Assembly (NCBI GenBank): GCA_903839725.1 | Contig: CAIMDG010000002.1 | Coordinates: 135,739-199,738 of the forward strand | Direction: 5' to 3' | DNA length: 64,000 nt | From: an uncultured bacterium | Lineage (GTDB): Bacteria; Patescibacteriota; Minisyncoccia; Phycocordibacterales; PALSA-1337 | In this document: piece by piece, positions 10,768 through 63,936 of the stretch | Layout of the letters: every line of letters begins with the position of its first letter | How positions within the stretch are numbered: the first letter of the stretch is position 1 | Translations under genes and position numbers: made by a program | The notes under the pieces: generated by a model | What the model was told of the DNA's origin: nothing | Database searches by the model: none | Seen by the model: the letters and a program-made list of their open reading frames with translations, nothing else

Positions 10768-10791
10768 GAAATATATTGTAACATTATTCTG

Positions 10792-11180
10792 TGGAGATGC
10801 TGGGAATCGAACCCAGGTGCAATTGATATTCATCGAACGACTCTACAGCGATATCAGACCTTGTTCCACGAAGTGGATTTAATGATTGTGATCCAGAAAG
10901 TCTGAAAAACACACAATCACGATCTCATTCCGCCCGAAGACGGATTCAAGAACTGAAGTGAGAAGCTTCAATCCCCTACATCCAGATTATTACGCCAACA
11001 TCATAGTCAGGATCCCCATGAAGTAACGGCTGTCGTTAAACGAGAGCGAATGCGAAGTCCTTTTGACCAAAATATGGTGAAACGGTTGATTTTGCATTTA
11101 GAATTTCCATCAGATTTACGAGTTAATGGTGCTCGCGCTGCACGAACGAGAATGGTCAACTGTCGAAGCCGATCATCCCC
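10792..11180 (-). ncRNA. ssrA: tmRNA (SsrA), about 389 nt, CCA not encoded
   Basis: The 5' end GGGGATGATCGGCTTCGACAG matches the tmRNA consensus GGGGnUGAUnCnGGnUUCGAC. The 3' end is GCACCTGGGTTCGATTCCCAGCATCTCCA, with a T-arm and a 7 bp acceptor pairing with the 5' GGGGATG (one G-U). The gene lies directly beside smpB. A candidate tag reading frame starts at a GCA about 86 nt from the 5' end: GCAAAATCAACCGTTTCACCATATTTTGGTCAAAAGGACTTCGCATTCGCTCTCGTTTAA gives AKSTVSPYFGQKDFAFALV*. Confidence 0.8.
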
Positions 11181-11313: not shown

Positions 11314-11760
11314 TCAACGATCACTAAACTCCCTTCTCACCGTCCTATCAGTTTCGCGCTTTTTGATACTTTCGCGCTTGTCATGCTGCTTTTTACCACG
11401 CACAACAGCGACAGAGACCTTGAGAAGATTACCCTTATTATATATTGAAATTGGCACTATTGTCAACCCCTTACCTCCTTCAATATCAGCCAAACGCGCA
11501 ATTTCCTTCTTGCCGAGAATGAGTCGGCGATTCCTGCGAGGTTCATAGTCTTTCGGAGTATTATTCTCCTGATACGGAGGTACAAATGTATTTACCACAT
11601 AGGCCTCTCCCCCACGAACGATGACATATGAACCATCGAGTGAGCCCTGACCTTTCTTAATCGACTTTACTTCAAGACCAATCAGCTCAATACCAGCCTC
11701 GATTTTCTCGAGGATTTCGTAGTTGAAATGCGCCTTTTTGTAGTCGATCAATGTGGGCAT
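11314..11760 (-). CDS. smpB: SsrA-binding protein SmpB
   Basis: MPTLIDYKKAHFNYEILEKIEAGIELIGLEVKSIKKG... is the canonical SmpB N-terminus. The gene is adjacent to the tmRNA. Confidence 0.9.
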   Translation of the reverse strand: MPTLIDYKKAHFNYEILEKIEAGIELIGLEVKSIKKGQGSLDGSYVIVRGGEAYVVNTFVPPYQENNTPKDYEPRRNRRLILGKKEIARLADIEGGKGLTIVPISIYNKGNLLKVSVAVVRGKKQHDKRESIKKRETDRTVRREFSDR

Positions 11761-15852: not shown

Positions 15853-15893
15853 TGCTACATTATACGTGAAGAGGTGCAATAAGACCAAAGACA

Positions 15894-16017
15894 ATCACCC
15901 CAGACAACACGGCCCCCTGAAGACTCCGTTACGAACGAGTATAAATGCCTAAAGAATCACATAATGAAACGATATCCCGCTGGGAAGTCTTCAGGGGGCC
16001 GTGTTGTCTGGGGTGAT
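15894..16017. repeat. Long-palindrome element (full-core type): 32-33 bp perfect inverted-repeat arms around a conserved core
   Basis: Arms atcaccccagacaacacggccccctgaagact (15894-15925) and agtcttcagggggccgtgttgtctggggtgat. The core ccgttacgaacgagtataaatgcctaaagaatcacataatgaaacgatatcccgctggga is related to the cores at 56423, 58796, 61435 and 63810. Confidence 0.85.
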
Positions 16018-16038
16018 TGAAAACCGAACAGACAGAAA

Positions 16039-16162
16039 GGCAGAGAGGAATATGGGCGTGGTGGGAGACTGCCCGGAGGGATATCGTCTTTTCATTTTGT
16101 ACTTTAGGCACAACTCCTCGTACGTAACGACGTCTCCAACCACGCCCATATTCCTCTCCGCC
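16039..16162. repeat. Long-palindrome element (full-core type, opposite orientation), 31 bp arms with 2 mismatches
   Basis: Arms ggcagagaggaatatgggcgtggtgggagac and gtctccaaccacgcccatattcctctccgcc. The core cccggagggatatcgtcttttcattttgtactttaggcacaactcctcgtacgtaacg is the reverse complement of the family core. Confidence 0.8.
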
Positions 16163-16425
16163 TGAAAAATGTGGAAACAAAAAACACCTCAATGAGATGT
16201 GTTTTGTTGGTTGCAAGAGTAATGTACCTGGTAGTCCAGGTGGGTGATCTCACACAGAGCACCAAGGTGCCTGCGAATTTGATCTCCCTAAAAATGTGTT
16301 TTGTAGGATTTTACTCCTGCAGCCTGAATATATTATATGCCTCGAAAAAAAGGAGTACAAGAGCACAACATAGTTGCGACACTTTTCTTGATTTCGAGCA
16401 AAGTTGACAATGGAACGATATAGCG

Positions 16426-24889: not shown

Positions 24890-25037
24890 AATGATTATTT
24901 GTCCAAAGAAATGAGGATTGGTTAGCTATGCCCTTTCGGGTTGTGCTTCCAATCGCTTGTTCTAAGATAACCTTGTTTTATTAAGGTATTCAAGATACTA
25001 GCAGATACATTGAATAGAGTCAACTAATTTTTATTCA

Positions 25038-25160
25038 GGAACAAGAGAGGTGGTGTGTACTCACTTTCTGCAGAATTTTGGAAACGCTTGTGACGAACTA
25101 ATATGCCACAGTGTCTCTAAAATTCTGCAGAAAGTGAGTACACACCACCTCTCTTGTTCC
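25038..25160. repeat. Long-palindrome element (short-core type): 42 bp perfect arms and a 39 nt loop, between rplE and rpsN
   Basis: Arms ggaacaagagaggtggtgtgtactcactttctgcagaatttt and the exact reverse complement at 25119-25160. The loop ggaaacgcttgtgacgaactaatatgccacagtgtctct is related to the 5' part of the family core and to the 54262 copy (shared ...agtgtctct end). Confidence 0.85.
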
Positions 25161-25182: not shown

Positions 25183-25209
25183 AAAAAATCACCCTCTCGG
25201 GTGATTTTT
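25183..25209 (-). terminator. Intrinsic terminator immediately after rplE, inside the spc r-protein cluster
   Basis: On the minus strand: aaaaatcaccc gaga gggtgatttttt, a 7 bp stem flanked by A and T runs. Confidence 0.65.
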
Positions 25210-52697: not shown

Positions 52698-53094
52698 TTA
52701 AATCTCAAATTTTAGTAATCTTACTATTTTTCTTCATTGTAATTATACTCGCTCCCAATATATTTGATATCTCAACAGTCTCCTTAAGAATCGTTTCTGC
52801 TATGTCTTTTTGAAGCTTTCCTGTATCACGAGCCAATCCTATCCATAATTTAGACTCATTTGCAGACTTTAAACTATACGTGTAGAAATTGATGTAATCT
52901 TTTCTAGAACTTGCACCTTTAGCTTCAACAACATTCGCAACAACCGATGTTCCACTTCTTATCAACTGTCTTGCAATCACCTGACCTGAAATATCTTTAG
53001 AGAACTTATCGACGCATCTCACAATCTCAATGGCATACTTGTATAATCTTGCATCAATTTCCTTCTTCGTCATTTTTGAGATTTGAGATTTAAT
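52698..53094 (-). mobile_element. Putative mobile cassette: four-helix-bundle gene bounded by 14 bp perfect terminal inverted repeats
   Basis: attaaatctcaaat at 52698-52711 and its exact reverse complement atttgagatttaat at 53081-53094. The left repeat includes the gene's stop codon and the right repeat lies 8 nt upstream of its ATG. Extra partial tandem copies of tttgagattt occur at 53075-53091. The cassette interrupts the conserved rpsG-fusA junction. Confidence 0.55.
52705..53073 (-). CDS. Four-helix-bundle protein (TIGR02436-like; 23S rRNA intervening-sequence protein family)
   Basis: MTKKEIDARLYKYAIEIVRCVDKFSKDISGQVIARQLIRSGTSVVANVVEAKGASSRKDYINFYTYSLKSANESKLWI matches the four-helix-bundle family pattern (SxxANIAEG-like SGTSVVANVVEA, FxxFLxIAxGSxxE-like). 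Confidence 0.75.
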   Translation of the reverse strand: MTKKEIDARLYKYAIEIVRCVDKFSKDISGQVIARQLIRSGTSVVANVVEAKGASSRKDYINFYTYSLKSANESKLWIGLARDTGKLQKDIAETILKETVEISNILGASIITMKKNSKITKI

Positions 53095-54046: not shown

Positions 54047-54261
54047 AGTTGGACGCACAGCAGCGCGCATACAACTTTGCACTTTACACTTCTAACTTTT
54101 AACTGTTATGTGGCAGTCCTGAATTATTCACCGCTTTGGGTTTGAGATATACCCTGACGATTACTCATTCTTGCCGTAATAATGTACTGGTCCAAAGTTT
54201 CCTTTAGATAGTGGAGATACCATATCATATAGATAGAGGATGTACAAGATATGAGAGTACG

Positions 54262-54375
54262 ACAGGAGGAGGGGCATTACTCATTTTCCGCACAAGTTTA
54301 GAGACACTTACATTACACAGCGTACCGCAGTGTTTACAAACTTGTGCGGAAAATGAGTAATGTCCCTCCTCCTGT
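54262..54375. repeat. Long-palindrome element (short-core type): 38 bp arms (1 mismatch) and a 38 nt loop, upstream of the rpsL leader
   Basis: Arms acaggaggaggggcattactcattttccgcacaagttt and aaacttgtgcggaaaatgagtaatgtccctcctcctgt. The loop gagacacttacattacacagcgtaccgcagtgtttac is related, as its reverse complement, to the 25038 copy's loop. Confidence 0.85.
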
Positions 54376-54401
54376 TGTGCGTATTGATTTAAATCAAGCC
54401 T

Positions 54402-56374: not shown

Positions 56375-56417
56375 ATGAAGATTCTGTGAAAAAGGAATCA
56401 ATTCCTGATGAAGATTT
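56375..56417 (-). promoter_or_regulatory. Direct repeats ATGAAGATTCT ... ATGAAGATTTT (32 nt apart), 23 nt upstream of the metallo-beta-lactamase-like gene start
   Basis: The same pair (atgaagattct N22 atgaagatttt with gaatcaa between) occurs at 58744-58787 upstream of comEC. Confidence 0.6.
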
Positions 56418-56422
56418 TATAA

Positions 56423-56556
56423 GTGAAGACCGGCACACAACACTAGTCCAATGAAACATCCGTTATGTTCTAATGTAAGTGCCTGAAGTACACTATTGAA
56501 AAAAGATATCCCGCTGGGAATTGTTTCATCGGACTAGTGTGATATGCCGGTCTTAC
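56423..56556. repeat. Long-palindrome element (full-core type) between divergent genes (metallo-beta-lactamase-like protein and sodA); 35 bp arms with 5 mismatches
   Basis: Arms gtgaagaccggcacacaacactagtccaatgaaaca and tgtttcatcggactagtgtgatatgccggtcttac. Core aacatccgttatgttctaatgtaagtgcctgaagtacactattgaaaaaagatatcccgctgggaat. Confidence 0.85.
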
Positions 56557-58743: not shown

Positions 58744-58787
58744 ATGAAGATTCTATGAAATTTGAATCAAAATAGAATGAAGATTTT
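58744..58787 (-). promoter_or_regulatory. Direct repeats ATGAAGATTCT ... ATGAAGATTTT upstream of comEC
   Basis: See 56375-56417. This is a conserved roughly 45 nt block shared by the two promoter regions. Confidence 0.6.
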
Positions 58788-58795
58788 AGATGCGC

Positions 58796-58930
58796 CCCAA
58801 GCAGCCGCACACATAGTATCCTGCCAAAACATCCGTAACGTTCTAATATAAGGGCCTAAAGTACAATATTAAAAGACGATATCCCGCTGGGAATTGTTTC
58901 GTCAGGATACTATGTGTGCGGCTGCTTGGG
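58796..58930. repeat. Long-palindrome element (full-core type); 28 bp perfect arms
   Basis: Arms cccaagcagccgcacacatagtatcctg and caggatactatgtgtgcggctgcttggg. Core ccaaaacatccgtaacgttctaatataagggcctaaagtacaatattaaaagacgatatcccgctgggaattgtttcgt. Confidence 0.9.
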
Positions 58931-58937
58931 TAACCAA

Positions 58938-59669
58938 TTATAGAAGTTGTTCAAACTCTTCAATCACTTTTTGTTCATCTACGATATCGAGAGATTTCTT
59001 GTATCGAGCACCCTTTACACCTTTGACGCGCTTCTCACATTCAGCCCAACTATGATCAACGTGAATAGCACCACCAACAGAACTGATATATGAAAATGCT
59101 TTTGCGTTTGAACGAGATGAACTCGACTTTTTTGTTTTCATGGCAACACTATCGTGTGAAACATCGAGAATATTCGGAAGATCATAGCGAGACAATGGAC
59201 CAGAATAAAGTTTCGTCGCACCATTATCGGCGAAATCCGTAGCAATGTGATCACAACGCTCATTTCCAATAATACCAACGTGTCCACCAACATATTCCCA
59301 TTTCACAGAACGATCTTTGACTGCAGCATCTAGTTTCATCCAAAGATCTTTATTGACCACATCATCTTTTGTTTTTGTGATCCAACCATTATTTTTCCAA
59401 CCTTTGATCCATAAAGTAATTCCATTGATCAGATACTTTGAGTCTGTAAACACAGTAATACCTGAATGTTTTGGTGTATGCAAAATTCCCTCAGTAGCCG
59501 CCATAAGTTCCATTCTATTGTTTGTTGTGTGCTTCTCTGCACTACCAAGTTCGGTCACCGTATCGCTCGTAACGACGACACTACCCCAACCACCTGGACC
59601 AGGATTTCCACGAGACGAACCATCAGTAAAAATTGTTATTGAATTCATAGGATGATTATACCACTTCAA
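58938..59669 (-). CDS. rnhA: Ribonuclease HI with a C-terminal extension
   Basis: ITIFTDGSSRGNPGPGGWG...TNNRMELMAA...VFTDSKYLING...GHVGIIGNERCD are RNase H1 catalytic-residue contexts (D, E, D, D). Overlaps the recJ 3' end by 14 nt. Confidence 0.8.
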   Translation of the reverse strand: MKWYNHPMNSITIFTDGSSRGNPGPGGWGSVVVTSDTVTELGSAEKHTTNNRMELMAATEGILHTPKHSGITVFTDSKYLINGITLWIKGWKNNGWITKTKDDVVNKDLWMKLDAAVKDRSVKWEYVGGHVGIIGNERCDHIATDFADNGATKLYSGPLSRYDLPNILDVSHDSVAMKTKKSSSSRSNAKAFSYISSVGGAIHVDHSWAECEKRVKGVKGARYKKSLDIVDEQKVIEEFEQLL

Positions 59670-61413: not shown

Positions 61414-61434
61414 CGTTGAAGTATACCAGATGAA

Positions 61435-61561
61435 AAAGAAGTTCCCACAACAAGCCTGACGAAACAATTCCCAGCGGGATATCGTCTCATTACTTAATAC
61501 TTCAGGCACTAATAAGAGGACGTCACAGATGTTTCGTCAGGCTTGTTGTGGGAACTTCTTG
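61435..61561. repeat. Long-palindrome element (full-core type, reverse orientation) between divergent recJ and the DnaA-domain-IV-like gene; 32 bp perfect arms
   Basis: Arms aagaagttcccacaacaagcctgacgaaaca and tgtttcgtcaggcttgttgtgggaacttctt. Core attcccagcgggatatcgtctcattacttaatacttcaggcactaataagaggacgtcacaga. Confidence 0.9.
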
Positions 61562-61631
61562 AAGATTACTAGATTTGACACAATCTATTTACAATGGTAT
61601 TTTCAAATAAACACTTTTACAAAGGATTTAT

Positions 61632-62066
61632 ATGGATATACATAGACGACTTAGACTATTGGAGCACAAAGTTCGCTTTCTCGAATCATTGATGCTACCA
61701 AGAACAAACATCAAACGCACAATCACCCGCAACAGTCCCGAGCCTTTCGAAATCATACTCAATATCGTTTCAAGAATATGTGACGTCGAAAGGAAACGTA
61801 TTCTGAAGAAAGGTCGCGGCAAACAAGATGCATCATGGGCACGACAGTTGATTATGTATTTTTGCATGGAATATAAACTTGGTTCGAGCAATTATATCGC
61901 CGAATGCCTCAATCGAGATGATCACACAACTGTTTTGCATGGCAATAAACAAGTTAAGGCTATTGCGTCGCTACCCGGCAAAGACAAAGATCAATTCGAA
62001 GCATGCAAACTGGAAATTGATACGGCCTTCAACCAAAGAGCTGGCATGCTGGTTGTCGCATCGTAA
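61632..62066 (+). CDS. Small HTH protein resembling DnaA C-terminal domain IV
   Basis: ARQLIMYFCMEYKLGSSNYIAECLNRDDHTTVLHGNKQVK matches the DnaA domain IV pattern A(R)QIAMYLxxELT..S...IG..FGGRDHTTV(L/I)HA. Confidence 0.55.
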   Translation: MDIHRRLRLLEHKVRFLESLMLPRTNIKRTITRNSPEPFEIILNIVSRICDVERKRILKKGRGKQDASWARQLIMYFCMEYKLGSSNYIAECLNRDDHTTVLHGNKQVKAIASLPGKDKDQFEACKLEIDTAFNQRAGMLVVAS

Positions 62067-63786: not shown

Positions 63787-63809
63787 GATGGATATTATAG
63801 CAGAAGGAC

Positions 63810-63936
63810 AGGTAACCTACATATCACAGCCTGACGAAACATCCGTAACGTTCTAATATAAGTGCCTAAAGTACAATATTAAAAGACGATATCCCGCTGG
63901 GAATTGTTTCGTCAGGCTGTGATATGTAGGTTACCT
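63810..63936. repeat. Long-palindrome element (full-core type) 24 nt upstream of the pgk start; 32 bp perfect arms
   Basis: Arms aggtaacctacatatcacagcctgacgaaaca and tgtttcgtcaggctgtgatatgtaggttacct. Core tccgtaacgttctaatataagtgcctaaagtacaatattaaaagacgatatcccgctgggaat. Confidence 0.9.

What the first reader, a model, noticed from the sequence alone, without database searches (positions are those of the whole stretch)
58796..58930. Family of at least 8 long palindromic elements: unique 28-42 bp arms around a partly conserved core, all at 5' ends of transcription units
**Copies in the window.** 15894-16017, 16039-16162, 25038-25160, 54262-54375, 56423-56556, 58796-58930, 61435-61561 and 63810-63936.

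**Shared architecture.** Each copy has a conserved inner stem (CCTGACGAAACA / TGTTTCGTCAGG) and a conserved roughly 65 nt loop (AACATCYGTRACGTTCTAATATAAGTGCCTAAAGTACAATATTAAAAGACGATATCCCGCTGGGAAT). The outer 15-30 bp of each arm is unique to the copy yet pairs perfectly. This is the opposite of a MITE or IS element, where the termini are conserved and the flanks differ. Here the loop is conserved and the stems differ but stay perfectly paired, which suggests either selection on hairpin or cruciform structure or a mechanism that generates inverted flank duplications.

**Position.** Every copy lies 20-80 nt upstream of a start codon or in a divergent intergenic region. The affected units are pgk, recJ-rnhA and a DnaA-domain-IV-like gene, comEC, the metallo-beta-lactamase-like gene and sodA, a small membrane protein, the rpsN unit and the rpsL unit.

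**Promoter reading.** In the gene-facing orientation the core reads TTCCCA-gcgggatatcgtcttt-TAATAT, a plausible -35 / 16 nt spacer / -10 promoter. The long arms give spurious ORF N-termini (MFHWTSVVCRSS and MFHRTSVICRS at the 56 kb copy).

**Candidate explanations.**
- Promoter cassettes embedded in hairpin insulators.
- A hairpin-targeting or hairpin-generating mobile element.
- A structured RNA with covarying stems.

I do not know of a described element with this architecture.
Basis: seen in the sequence. Interest (0 to 1): 0.88.

Follow-up and report, generated by a model that had tools for sequence, protein, structure and literature searches.

The report
Palindromic repeat family with flipping core
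A small-genome (CPR/Patescibacteria-type) bacterium carries a family of about 125-bp DNA palindromes between its genes, with a conserved 63-bp centre that lies in either orientation in related species and long arms that change quickly yet stay perfectly paired; they are real and apparently undescribed, but they are not promoters and what they do is unknown.

Summary
The eight palindromes are real. Six (type A) share a 63-nt centre with three near-invariant blocks, flanked by 31-36-bp arms that are 88-100% complementary. Two (type B) are related, with 50-bp arms and a roughly 20-nt centre.

The family is confined to a genus-level clade of uncultured Patescibacteria. Rfam, phage, plasmid and viral collections gave no match.

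Orthologous loci from relatives show:
- Arm substitutions occur on both arms together, with almost no G-U pairs.
- The centre is inverted at 3 of 4 orthologous sites between two close species.
- Centres resemble other copies in the same genome more than their orthologues.
- Some relatives have empty sites. One has nothing there; two keep a single copy of the outer 15-17 nt of one arm.
- One copy lies between convergent genes, and one lies between a terminator and a promoter.

The promoter reading fails. The proposed -10 is not conserved, the centre's orientation is not fixed, and downstream genes have their own TGnTATAAT boxes outside the element.

Best reading: a non-coding foldback repeat family in intergenic spacers. 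Replication template switching keeps the arms perfectly paired, remodels them and inverts the centre. The conserved centre is probably a protein-recognition module of unknown role.

The parts
58796..58930 (+). Type A element (the flagged copy), between the rnhA stop and the comEC promoter region. Arms 58796-58831 and 58895-58930 (36 nt, 2 mismatches). Loop 58832-58894 (63 nt). Core pattern on the + strand.
58832..58840 (+). Conserved loop block 1, TCCGTNACG
   Evidence: alignments
58852..58861 (+). Conserved loop block 2, GTGCCTRAAG (here GGGCCTAAAG)
58876..58894 (+). Conserved loop block 3, ACGATATCCCGCTGGGAAT. This is the most invariant part; its 16-nt stretch GATATCCCGCTGGGAA is exact in 10 of 15 copies from three species.
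63810..63936 (+). Type A element between the tpiA stop and the pgk promoter. Arms 32 nt, 100% paired. Its loop differs from that of 58796 at 1 position.
61436..61560 (-). Type A element between the divergent recJ and DnaA_C genes. Arms 31 nt, 100% paired. Core on the - strand, inverted relative to the orthologues in L128 and L130.
56426..56554 (+). Type A element between divergent sodA and a 317-aa hypothetical gene. Arms 33 nt with 4 mismatches. Inverted relative to L128 and L130; an inner-arm G/A mismatch travels with the loop.
15892..16019 (+). Type A element (divergent subtype, inner stem GAAGACT). Arms 34 nt, 100% paired. First of a head-to-head pair between ndk and a DUF2238 gene.
16038..16163 (-). 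Type A element (divergent subtype, inner stem GGAGAC). Arms 32 nt with 2 mismatches. Absent in the L128-like species (L143), where only 17 nt matching its outer arm remain.
25038..25160 (.). Type B palindrome. Arms 51 nt (94% paired), centre 21 nt resembling loop block 1 and its neighbourhood. Lies between the rplE terminator and the rpsN promoter. Conserved in L137 with 6 double arm changes.
54259..54378 (.). Type B palindrome. Arms 50 nt (90% paired), centre 20 nt. Lies between the M50 peptidase stop and the rpsL leader. L128 has a strongly diverged perfect palindrome at the same site.
63794..63802 (-). Context: pgk extended -10 box TGCTATAAT, 7 nt before the ATG and outside the element
61420..61428 (-). 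Context: recJ extended -10 box TGGTATACT, 6 nt before the ATG and 8 nt outside the element. Conserved in five species, including one with an empty site.
61575..61603 (+). Context: promoter-like site TTGACA-17-TATTTT (with TG) for the DnaA_C gene, outside the element
24995..25023 (-). Context: rpsN promoter TTGACT-17-TAGTAT, directly downstream of the type B palindrome
25183..25209 (-). Context: intrinsic terminator after rplE (AAAAATCACCC-GAGA-GGGTGATTTTTT), directly upstream of the type B palindrome

Best explanation
These are members of a lineage-restricted family of non-coding foldback (palindromic) repeats, about 125 bp long. They occupy spacers between transcription units in a Patescibacteria genome.

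**Shown.**
- The whole palindrome is extra DNA relative to some orthologous sites.
- The centre is conserved in sequence and length.
- The arms diverge at about the neutral rate in their middle part but stay paired through double changes.
- The centre is found in either orientation at orthologous sites.
- Centres are more alike within a genome than between orthologues.

**Inferred.**
- The arms are kept perfect, remodelled in clusters and possibly extended by DNA-level processes acting on inverted repeats. These are intramolecular template switching or hairpin-templated repair during replication. The literature describes these processes as homogenising arms, enlarging inverted repeats and inverting spacers.
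- Centres are exchanged between copies by ectopic conversion through the shared inner stems.
- The three invariant blocks in the 63-bp centre are most likely a recognition module for a protein. That protein is either the machinery that propagates the element or a host DNA-binding protein.
- The element itself is dispensable at any one site.
For: **Reality and family.**

**Arms.**
- 27 of 35 stem pairs carry double changes. Pairing is 93.5%, against 66.6% in shuffles and 35-47% when partners are slid.
- Among orthologues, 64 arm positions changed on both arms with the pair kept, against 21 other changes.
- G-U pairs are about 2% with no consistent strand.
- Changes are clustered, for example TCACAG to GTAAGG at the pgk site.
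- The copy with a decaying centre (L143) still has near-perfect arms, although they are about 30% diverged from the window's copy.

**Rates.** Neutral 4-fold divergence is 24-29% to L128 and 52-60% to L130. Loops differ by 5-16 of 63 positions from L128 orthologues and 15-18 of 63 from L130 orthologues.

**Inversion.** 3 of 4 sites differ between the window and L128. L130 agrees with L128 at two of them.

**Concerted centres.** The window's pgk and comEC loops differ at 1 position, against 5-7 from their orthologues. The window's recJ loop differs from L128's recJ loop at 16 positions.

**Presence and absence.**
- The rnhA|comEC site in L130 is empty.
- L134 has no element in 20 kb.
- L132 (recJ site) and L143 (second ndk-site copy) lack the element.

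**Location in spacers.** One copy lies between terminator and promoter; another lies between convergent genes.

**Literature on template switching.** PMC8604942 reports arm homogenisation and spacer inversion (abstract). PMC13100816 reports arm expansion near promoters. PMC8794818 reports creation and maintenance of perfect hairpins (both abstracts).
Against: - No transposase, recombinase or autonomous partner was found. Only about 74 kb of the source genome could be read.
- No clear target-site duplication was seen.
- Copy number is modest: 8 in 74 kb.
- The centre, and the type B copy at rplE|rpsN, are under clear purifying selection. The type B arms differ at about 12% of positions between species whose neutral sites are saturated, and three mismatches are conserved. 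A host function could explain this equally well.
- Template switching was not observed directly.
- Template switching does not explain the fixed 63-nt length, the T-poor polarity of the 5' arms, or the positioned YACAYA block.
- Conserved mismatches at the sod and rpsN sites show that homogenisation is not fast everywhere.
- Whether the empty sites reflect insertion or deletion is unresolved.
Confidence: 0.5

Rival explanations
1. Host cis-acting DNA element. The 63-bp centre is the binding site of a lineage-specific DNA-binding or architectural protein. The cruciform-prone arms make it a boundary, topological or transcriptional insulator between closely packed, individually promoted leaderless genes. 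As a double-stranded site it would work in either orientation.
For: - Three invariant blocks at fixed spacing and a fixed 63-bp length, about six helical turns.
- Purifying selection on the centre and on the type B copy.
- All copies lie at unit boundaries, just upstream of promoter regions or between terminator and promoter.
- Non-homologous palindromes occupy the same boundaries in L133 and L128.
- Indifference to orientation fits a duplex DNA site.
- Many neighbouring genes act on DNA: recJ, rnhA, comEC, polA, fpg, DnaA_C.
Against: - The element is dispensable at orthologous sites in close relatives and absent from L133-L136.
- Centres are swapped between sites, as in selfish repeats.
- No candidate binding protein was identified.
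- The distance to the promoter varies from about 10 to about 80 nt.
Confidence: 0.2
2. A small mobile core (the 63-bp centre plus 6-15-bp inner inverted repeats) is the real mobile unit. Its insertion, or a step coupled to it, copies 15-17 nt of one flank in inverted orientation, creating site-specific arms. This would be a hairpin-generating mobile element.
For: - Two empty sites keep a single copy of the outer 15-17 nt of one arm: L132 TTATAGGAACTTCTT at recJ, and L143 AGGCGGAGAGAAATATG at the second ndk-site copy.
- At the latter site the window has an imperfect 8-nt direct repeat (GGAATATG / GAAAAATG) around the extra DNA.
- Homology between paralogues ends sharply at CCTGAYGAAACA.
- Outer arms are site-specific but conserved among orthologues.
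- Centres move between sites.
Against: - The L130 rnhA|comEC empty site retains no arm sequence at all.
- Slippage deletion across a hairpin explains all three empty sites.
- The arms share a positioned YACAYA block and a composition that flanking DNA would not supply.
- No solo cores or half cores occur.
- No enzyme was found.
Confidence: 0.15
3. Structured RNA. The long hairpin is transcribed and acts as an RNase III processing site, an mRNA stabiliser or a terminator, or it releases a small RNA carrying the conserved loop.
For: - Very stable predicted RNA hairpins, -68 to -73 kcal/mol, z about -9 to -14.
- Massive stem covariation.
- Several copies directly follow a stop codon with no other terminator.
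- One copy lies between convergent genes, where a bidirectional terminator would sit.
Against: - The loop orientation flips between orthologues, so the RNA loop would be the complement.
- No covarying structure occurs inside the loop.
- G-U pairs are almost absent and mismatches show no strand bias.
- No U-tract follows the stems, whereas canonical terminators exist elsewhere in the window.
- The type B copy lies after a terminator and before a promoter.
- Rfam gave no match.
Confidence: 0.08
4. Invertible promoter switch (inverton). The centre carries a promoter that is turned towards or away from the neighbouring gene by inversion between the arms.
For: - The centre is found in both orientations at orthologous sites.
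Against: - No conserved -35/-10, and no TGnTAnnnT box in any copy on either strand.
- Downstream genes have their own promoters.
- All same-species contigs from several samples show the same orientation.
- Contig breaks are caused by the repeats.
- A 63-bp segment is very short for recombinase-mediated inversion (my own knowledge).
- The Pfam-scanned genes of the window include no invertase.
Confidence: 0.03

Closest known systems
Bacterial MITE-like palindromic repeats: Correia/NEMIS elements of Neisseria, ERIC/IRU of enterobacteria (about 127 bp). Features recalled from my own knowledge; general reviews PMC3184786 and PMC2229807 were listed.
   Same: Small (about 125 bp), non-coding and intergenic. 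The whole unit folds into a long hairpin. Multiple dispersed copies. Present or absent at orthologous sites. Some of these known elements carry a protein-binding site in the centre.
   Different: In those families the terminal inverted repeats are the conserved part and copies are alike along their whole length. Here the centre is conserved, the outer and middle arms are almost unalignable between copies yet perfectly paired, no target duplication is evident, and the centre flips.
REP/BIME elements, especially BIME-1/RIP (two inverted REPs around an IHF site), and REPINs (own knowledge; PMC3733652 listed)
   Same: Two inverted arms around a central segment that is a protein-binding site. Located at the ends of transcription units. 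Proposed roles in supercoiling, termination and mRNA stability.
   Different: REP arms are 20-40 bp, conserved within a genome and tagged by GTAG/CGTC for a RAYT transposase. No such tag or conserved arm occurs here.
Template-switch evolution of inverted repeats (PMC8604942, PMC13100816, PMC8794818)
   Same: Homogenisation of arms, enlargement of arms, inversion of the spacer, clustered multi-nucleotide changes and perfect hairpins. All of these signatures are seen here.
   Different: This is a mutational process, not an element family. It does not explain the dispersed, conserved 63-bp centre.
Parvovirus/AAV inverted terminal repeats in flip and flop forms (own knowledge)
   Same: About 125 nt. 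A long outer palindrome encloses a short asymmetric interior that exists in two orientations.
   Different: Those are ends of linear single-stranded genomes replicated by hairpin transfer with a Rep nickase. These elements are internal chromosomal sites with no supported internal arms. This is an analogy only.
Integron attC sites (own knowledge)
   Same: Recombination sites defined by a folded palindromic structure more than by sequence, of similar length range.
   Different: attC sites have conserved outer R boxes and a variable centre, and they lie in cassette arrays next to an integrase. Here the arrangement is the reverse and there is no array.
TIGR-Tas stem-loop arrays (PMC12045711)
   Same: Found in CPR bacteria. 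Variable but consistently palindromic stems around a loop with conserved motifs.
   Different: TIGR units are tandem arrays next to a Tas (Nop-domain) gene, with box C/D motifs and two 8-12-nt spacers in the loop. These elements are solitary, lack box C/D, have a conserved rather than spacer-bearing loop, and no Nop-domain gene was seen.
Selfish palindromic or hairpin repeats of organelle genomes (for example PMC2800124 and PMC2670323, listed)
   Same: Hairpin-forming repeats that colonise intergenic spacers of small genomes without a known transposase.
   Different: Different hosts, and copies there are similar in sequence. No conserved-centre/variable-arm architecture has been reported.

Membership tests
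MITE (non-autonomous transposon) | Terminal inverted repeats conserved among copies | tested here: not met
   Outer and middle arms of non-orthologous copies are barely alignable. Only the inner 6-12 bp are shared.
MITE (non-autonomous transposon) | Direct target-site duplication flanking each copy | tested here: inconclusive
   No repeat is evident in the 10-nt flanks. One imperfect 8-nt direct repeat occurs at the second ndk-site copy.
MITE (non-autonomous transposon) | Small, non-coding, multi-copy, present or absent at orthologous sites | tested here: met
   119-135 bp. Eight copies in the window (six type A, two type B) and seven further copies in four related loci. Empty sites in L130, L132, L143 and L134.
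MITE (non-autonomous transposon) | An autonomous partner encoding a transposase with the same ends | not testable with these tools
   Only about 74 kb of the source genome was readable. No solo cores or halves were found in it.
REP/BIME | 20-40-bp conserved palindromic unit with a GTAG or CGTC tag | tested here: not met
   Arms are 28-51 bp, differ between copies and have no common terminal tetranucleotide.
Correia / ERIC and other Rfam or curated repeat families | Sequence or covariance-model similarity to the family | tested here: not met
   The Rfam gathering scan found only tmRNA. The E-value scan found only sub-threshold hits to generic long hairpins.
Integron attC | Conserved outer R''/R' core sites with a variable centre, in cassette arrays near intI | tested here: not met
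   The outer ends are variable and the centre is conserved. Copies are solitary between housekeeping genes.
Inverton (phase-variable invertible promoter) | A promoter inside the invertible segment | tested here: not met
   No conserved hexamers and no TGnTAnnnT box.
Inverton (phase-variable invertible promoter) | Both orientations coexist within a population | tested here: inconclusive
   All same-species contigs from several samples have one orientation and contig breaks are repeat-induced. Reads could not be examined.
Intrinsic terminator | GC-rich stem with a short loop, followed by a U-tract | tested here: not met
   The terminator scan does not call the elements. The loop is 63 nt and no T-run follows, whereas canonical terminators exist nearby.
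Structured cis-regulatory or small RNA | Fixed orientation relative to transcription, and G-U-tolerant covariation on one strand | tested here: not met
   Orientation is inverted at 3 of 4 orthologous sites. G-U pairs are about 2% with no strand bias.
TIGR array | Tandem units with box C/D motifs and dual spacers next to a Tas gene | tested here: not met
   Copies are solitary. The loop is conserved and lacks RUGAUGA/CUGA pairs. No Nop-domain protein was found among the scanned genes.

The most novel reading that the evidence does not exclude
The elements represent an undescribed kind of hairpin-based genetic element. A conserved 63-bp cassette, read by an unknown protein, moves between sites and is flipped. 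Its integration or maintenance mirrors adjacent DNA into long site-specific arms (an inverted rather than direct target duplication). This would create cruciform-forming boundaries between the leaderless transcription units of a CPR bacterium.
Probability: 0.17. Interest if true: 0.85.

Novelty: new variant of a known kind. Interest (0 to 1): 0.6.

Why it matters
If the description holds, this is a bacterial repeat family built the opposite way round from MITEs and REPs: conserved centre, free but strictly paired arms.

It is also an unusually clean natural record of how long inverted repeats evolve. With only a handful of related metagenome contigs one can see double substitutions, clustered changes, spacer inversion, exchange of centres between loci, and gain or loss.

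That makes the proposed template-switch maintenance of hairpins directly testable in bacteria.

The invariant 19-nt block is a concrete handle for finding the protein that reads it, in a group of organisms (CPR/Patescibacteria) whose gene regulation and genome dynamics are almost unknown.

It also matters practically. The elements break metagenome assemblies and create spurious ORF starts.

Tried and rejected
1. **Genome-collection scan, wasted.** None carries the element.
2. **Strand test by G-U against A-C mismatches.** The result was mixed, with no bias.
3. **Internal secondary structure of the loop on either strand.** Only a CCC/GGG mini-hairpin appeared, with no covariation.
4. **Promoter reading.**
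5. **parS idea.** The inner stems GAAACA/TGTTTC are parS half-sites, but the window has no true parS-like 16-mer above chance, and the halves are in the wrong order.
6. **Other motifs checked by eye on the alignments.** Hammerhead (CUGAUGA...GAAA), box C/D, sigma-54 (GGCAC-N5-TTGC), LexA/Cheo box, DnaA box, IHF consensus, and Chi-like AGCGG/GCTGG. None is conserved across copies or correctly spaced. These are inspections, not tests.
7. **TIGR-Tas stem-loop arrays.** Rejected.
8. **Phage, plasmid or viral origin.** No match.
9. **Solo cores or half cores.** None found.
10. **Contig ends inside copy 58796 as a sign of inversion heterogeneity.** Rejected. The two contig ends overlap consistently, at the one SNP that distinguishes this loop from that of 63810.
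11. **Orthologues of the 16-kb region through the metallo-beta-lactamase gene.** These led to non-syntenic distant relatives without elements.
12. **Outgroup for the empty sites.** Not obtainable.
Full report

Yes. The repeat finder lists eight long inverted repeats at the reported places.
- Six have arms of 31-36 nt (88-100% complementary) around a spacer of 60-63 nt: 15892-16019, 16038-16163, 56426-56554, 58796-58930, 61436-61560 and 63810-63936.
- Two have arms of 50-51 nt around 20-21 nt: 25038-25160 and 54259-54378.

The window has nine loci with exact inverted 16-mers within 200 nt, against 0.33 in dinucleotide shuffles. The ninth and tenth candidates are ordinary short terminator-type palindromes. 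A 57-nt degenerate pattern of the loop matches exactly the six type A copies, with 0 expected. Predicted hairpins are extreme: RNA -68 to -73 kcal/mol and DNA -39 to -55 kcal/mol, with z from -9 to -17.

- Only six copies carry the conserved loop.
- The 12-bp inner stem is exact on both arms in two copies; only GAAACA/TGTTTC (or GARAC) is general.
- The type B centre resembles only the first third of the type A loop.

**2. Where does the window come from, and how wide is the family?**

The gene content includes type IV pilus genes, comEC, a 23S-IVP gene, an odd tmRNA tag and no Shine-Dalgarno sequences. The named RecJ homologues at 62-66% identity are Patescibacteria, Paceibacterota or Parcubacteria. 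Together these place it in the CPR; this is an inference. The closest relatives are unnamed metagenome contigs.

The core pattern found three contigs in one JGI lake metagenome and nothing in viral contigs. BLAST against phages and plasmids found nothing. Rfam has no family for it.

A covariance model of 15 copies (R1) finds:
- the six type A copies in the window;
- copies in same-species contigs;
- copies in the two nearest species groups (L128/L119-L121/L143 and L130/L131);
- none in L132, L133, L134, L135 or L136.

Ten further kilobases of the source genome beyond the window hold no copy. My first collection scan, with a 16-mer, was wasted on chance hits.

**3. Anatomy**

The loop is exactly 63 nt in 13 of 15 copies. 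It holds three near-invariant blocks, TCCGTNACG, GTGCCTRAAG and ACGATATCCCGCTGGGAAT, separated by AT-rich variable stretches. No internal helix is supported on either strand apart from a CCC/GGG mini-hairpin.

The arms have three zones:
- an inner 6-12 bp shared by copies (...GAAACA);
- a middle 10-12 bp that is free to vary;
- an outer 10-17 bp that is specific to the site but conserved among orthologues.

Outer and middle arms of different sites are barely more alike than composition-matched shuffles, so 'unique arms' is nearly right. They do share a T-poor 5' arm (13% T). They also share a degenerate YACAYA block 17-24 nt from the loop in 13 of 16 copies (ACA[CT]A occurs 10 times against 1.6 expected; 0 of 1000 shuffles reach this). 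This argues that the whole palindrome, not just the centre, descends from a common ancestor.

**4. Evolution seen in orthologous loci**

Syntenic loci were fetched through neighbouring proteins. Four-fold-site divergence from the window is 24-29% for L128 and 52-60% (saturated) for L130.

*(a) Arms change on both sides together.*
- 27 of 35 stem pairs have double changes. Pairing is 93.5%, against 66.6% in shuffles and 35-47% for slid partners.
- In orthologue comparisons, 64 positions changed on both arms with the pair kept, against 21 others.
- G-U pairs are about 2%, and the few mismatches show no strand preference.
- Changes come in clusters.

*(b) The centre is inverted relative to the same flanks at 3 of 4 sites between the window and L128.* L130 agrees with L128 at two of them. 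At the sod site an inner-arm G/A mismatch has travelled with the centre.

*(c) Centres do not follow orthology.*
- The window's pgk and comEC centres differ at 1 of 63 positions but at 5-7 from their orthologues.
- The window's recJ centre differs at 16 positions from L128's.
- L130's pgk and sod centres are closest to each other, and its recJ centre is closest to its pgk centre.

*(d) Presence and absence.*
- L130 has an empty rnhA|comEC site, with neither arms nor centre.
- L134 has no element in 20 kb.
- L132 lacks the recJ copy but keeps about 15 nt matching the outer right arm next to the recJ -10 box.
- L143 lacks the second ndk-site copy but keeps 17 nt matching its outer arm. The window there shows an imperfect 8-nt direct repeat around the extra DNA.
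- Whether these are insertions with an inverted flank copy or slippage deletions could not be decided, for lack of an outgroup.

*(e) Other palindromes occupy the same boundaries.*
- L133 has loop-less perfect palindromes that include the -10 boxes themselves, and a 44-nt-arm palindrome with a different 60-nt centre at rnhA|comEC.
- At M50|rpsL the window and L128 carry perfect palindromes that are about 45% different.

*(f) The type B copy at rplE|rpsN is conserved in an L130-like species.* It has the same orientation, six double arm changes and three conserved inner mismatches.

*(g) The L143 copy has a decaying centre but still near-perfect arms*.

**5. Context**

The genes of this window have no Shine-Dalgarno sequence. 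Many have a TGnTATAAT-type box ending 6-7 nt before the ATG, so almost every gene is its own, probably leaderless, unit. 'Upstream of a start codon' is therefore true of nearly every spacer.

The elements lie between the end of one unit and the promoter region of the next:
- pgk, recJ, DnaA_C and rpsN all have promoters outside the element.
- The type B copy 25038 lies exactly between the rplE terminator and the rpsN promoter.
- The L121 copy lies between convergent fpg and spoU.

**6. What it is not**

*Not a promoter cassette.*
- The supposed -10 reads TAATAT in 3 of 15 copies.
- No copy has the lineage's extended -10 on either strand.
- The best conserved bases are the supposed spacer.
- The orientation is not kept.

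*Not a sequence-specific structured RNA.* The reasons are the orientation flips, the lack of loop covariation, the absence of G-U pairs, and one copy sitting in an untranscribed spacer.

*Not an inverton on present evidence.* All same-species assemblies agree in orientation. The contig breaks inside copy 58796 are repeat-induced.

*Not a TIGR array, attC site, REP or known Rfam family* (see the membership table).

**7. Best explanation and how sure**

I read the elements as a lineage-restricted foldback repeat family living in spacers. The arm behaviour comprises perfect pairing at near-neutral divergence, clustered double changes, inversion of the centre and possible outward growth. This is the set of signatures described for polymerase template switching at inverted repeats (PMC8604942, PMC13100816 and PMC8794818; abstracts). 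It persists even in a copy whose centre is decaying, which points to a DNA-level mechanism rather than selection on an RNA. Exchange of centres between loci fits ectopic conversion through the shared inner stems.

The centre itself is under purifying selection with fixed length. It is most simply a protein-recognition module, but whether that protein serves the element or the host cannot be told. Confidence is about 0.5.

The main rivals are:
- a host boundary or architectural DNA site (0.2);
- a mobile core that mirrors flank DNA on insertion (0.15).

The fixed 63-nt length, the composition polarity of the arms and the polarity of the empty sites remain unexplained (notebook).

**8. Novelty**

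I found no description of such an element. It is closest in kind to MITE-like palindromic repeats and BIME-type units, but it is built the other way round. I rate it a new variant of a known kind. There is a modest chance (about 0.17) that it reflects a new hairpin-based mobility or boundary mechanism.

Noticed in passing
window 54110-54227 (- strand), upstream of rpsL; L128 2489-2614, L130 18761-18886, L133 18790-18915, L134 18352-18480: A non-coding block of about 118 nt that is almost invariant in five species whose 4-fold sites are saturated. It has a predicted nested-helix fold but little covariation, and no Rfam hit at E<=10. It may be an S12-operon leader or a small RNA.
   Followed up: partly
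window, 45 nt upstream of 26 genes (for example 63794-63802, 61420-61428, 59655-59663, all - strand): No Shine-Dalgarno sequence precedes any inspected gene. A TGnTATAAT-like box ends 6-7 nt before the ATG of pgk, recJ, rnhA, HIT and smpB. This suggests leaderless mRNAs and one promoter per gene; rnhA's box lies inside the end of recJ.
   Followed up: partly
window 58744-58785 and 56375-56416 (- strand): A shared upstream motif, AATCTTCAT...TTGATTC...TTTTTCAyAGAATCTTCAT, lies in front of comEC and of the 317-aa hypothetical gene. It is also present at the element-free sites of relatives. It may be an operator of a small regulon.
   Followed up: partly
window 10789-11180 (- strand): tmRNA gene with an unusual tag peptide, AKSTVSPYFGQKDFAFALV. 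smpB is adjacent at 11314-11760.
   Followed up: no
L133 8180-8233 and 9926-10003: Perfect palindromes with 0-2-nt loops whose arms contain the extended -10 boxes. At the second site they also contain both start codons of divergent HIT and recJ, so the promoters are mirrored.
   Followed up: partly
L128 2406-2489; L130 18884-18964: A purine-rich / pyrimidine-rich hairpin (GAAAGTATAAAGGTAT...) lies directly before the rpsL start codon in two relatives. The window has a different sequence there.
   Followed up: no
window 24890-24995 (- strand); L137 5390-5495: A conserved leader of about 100 nt lies between the rpsN promoter and the rpsN start. It is nearly identical in a species saturated at neutral sites.
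   Followed up: no
window 61632-62066 (+ strand): A 144-aa protein consisting only of DnaA domain IV (Bac_DnaA_C). The protein search found it only in this species and one close relative (88% identity).
   Followed up: partly
L145 end / L125 start; L126 and L127 starts (copy 58796): Several metagenome assemblies break inside this element. The two contig ends overlap by 7 nt at the single SNP (GGGCC against GTGCC) that separates its loop from that of copy 63810, so the near-identical centres act as assembly-breaking repeats.
   Followed up: yes
window 52705-53073 (- strand): A 23S-rRNA-intervening-sequence-protein gene lies between rpsG and fusA in this species. It is absent at that position in L128 and replaced by ORF6N-domain genes in L133 and the L132-like contig.
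   Followed up: no
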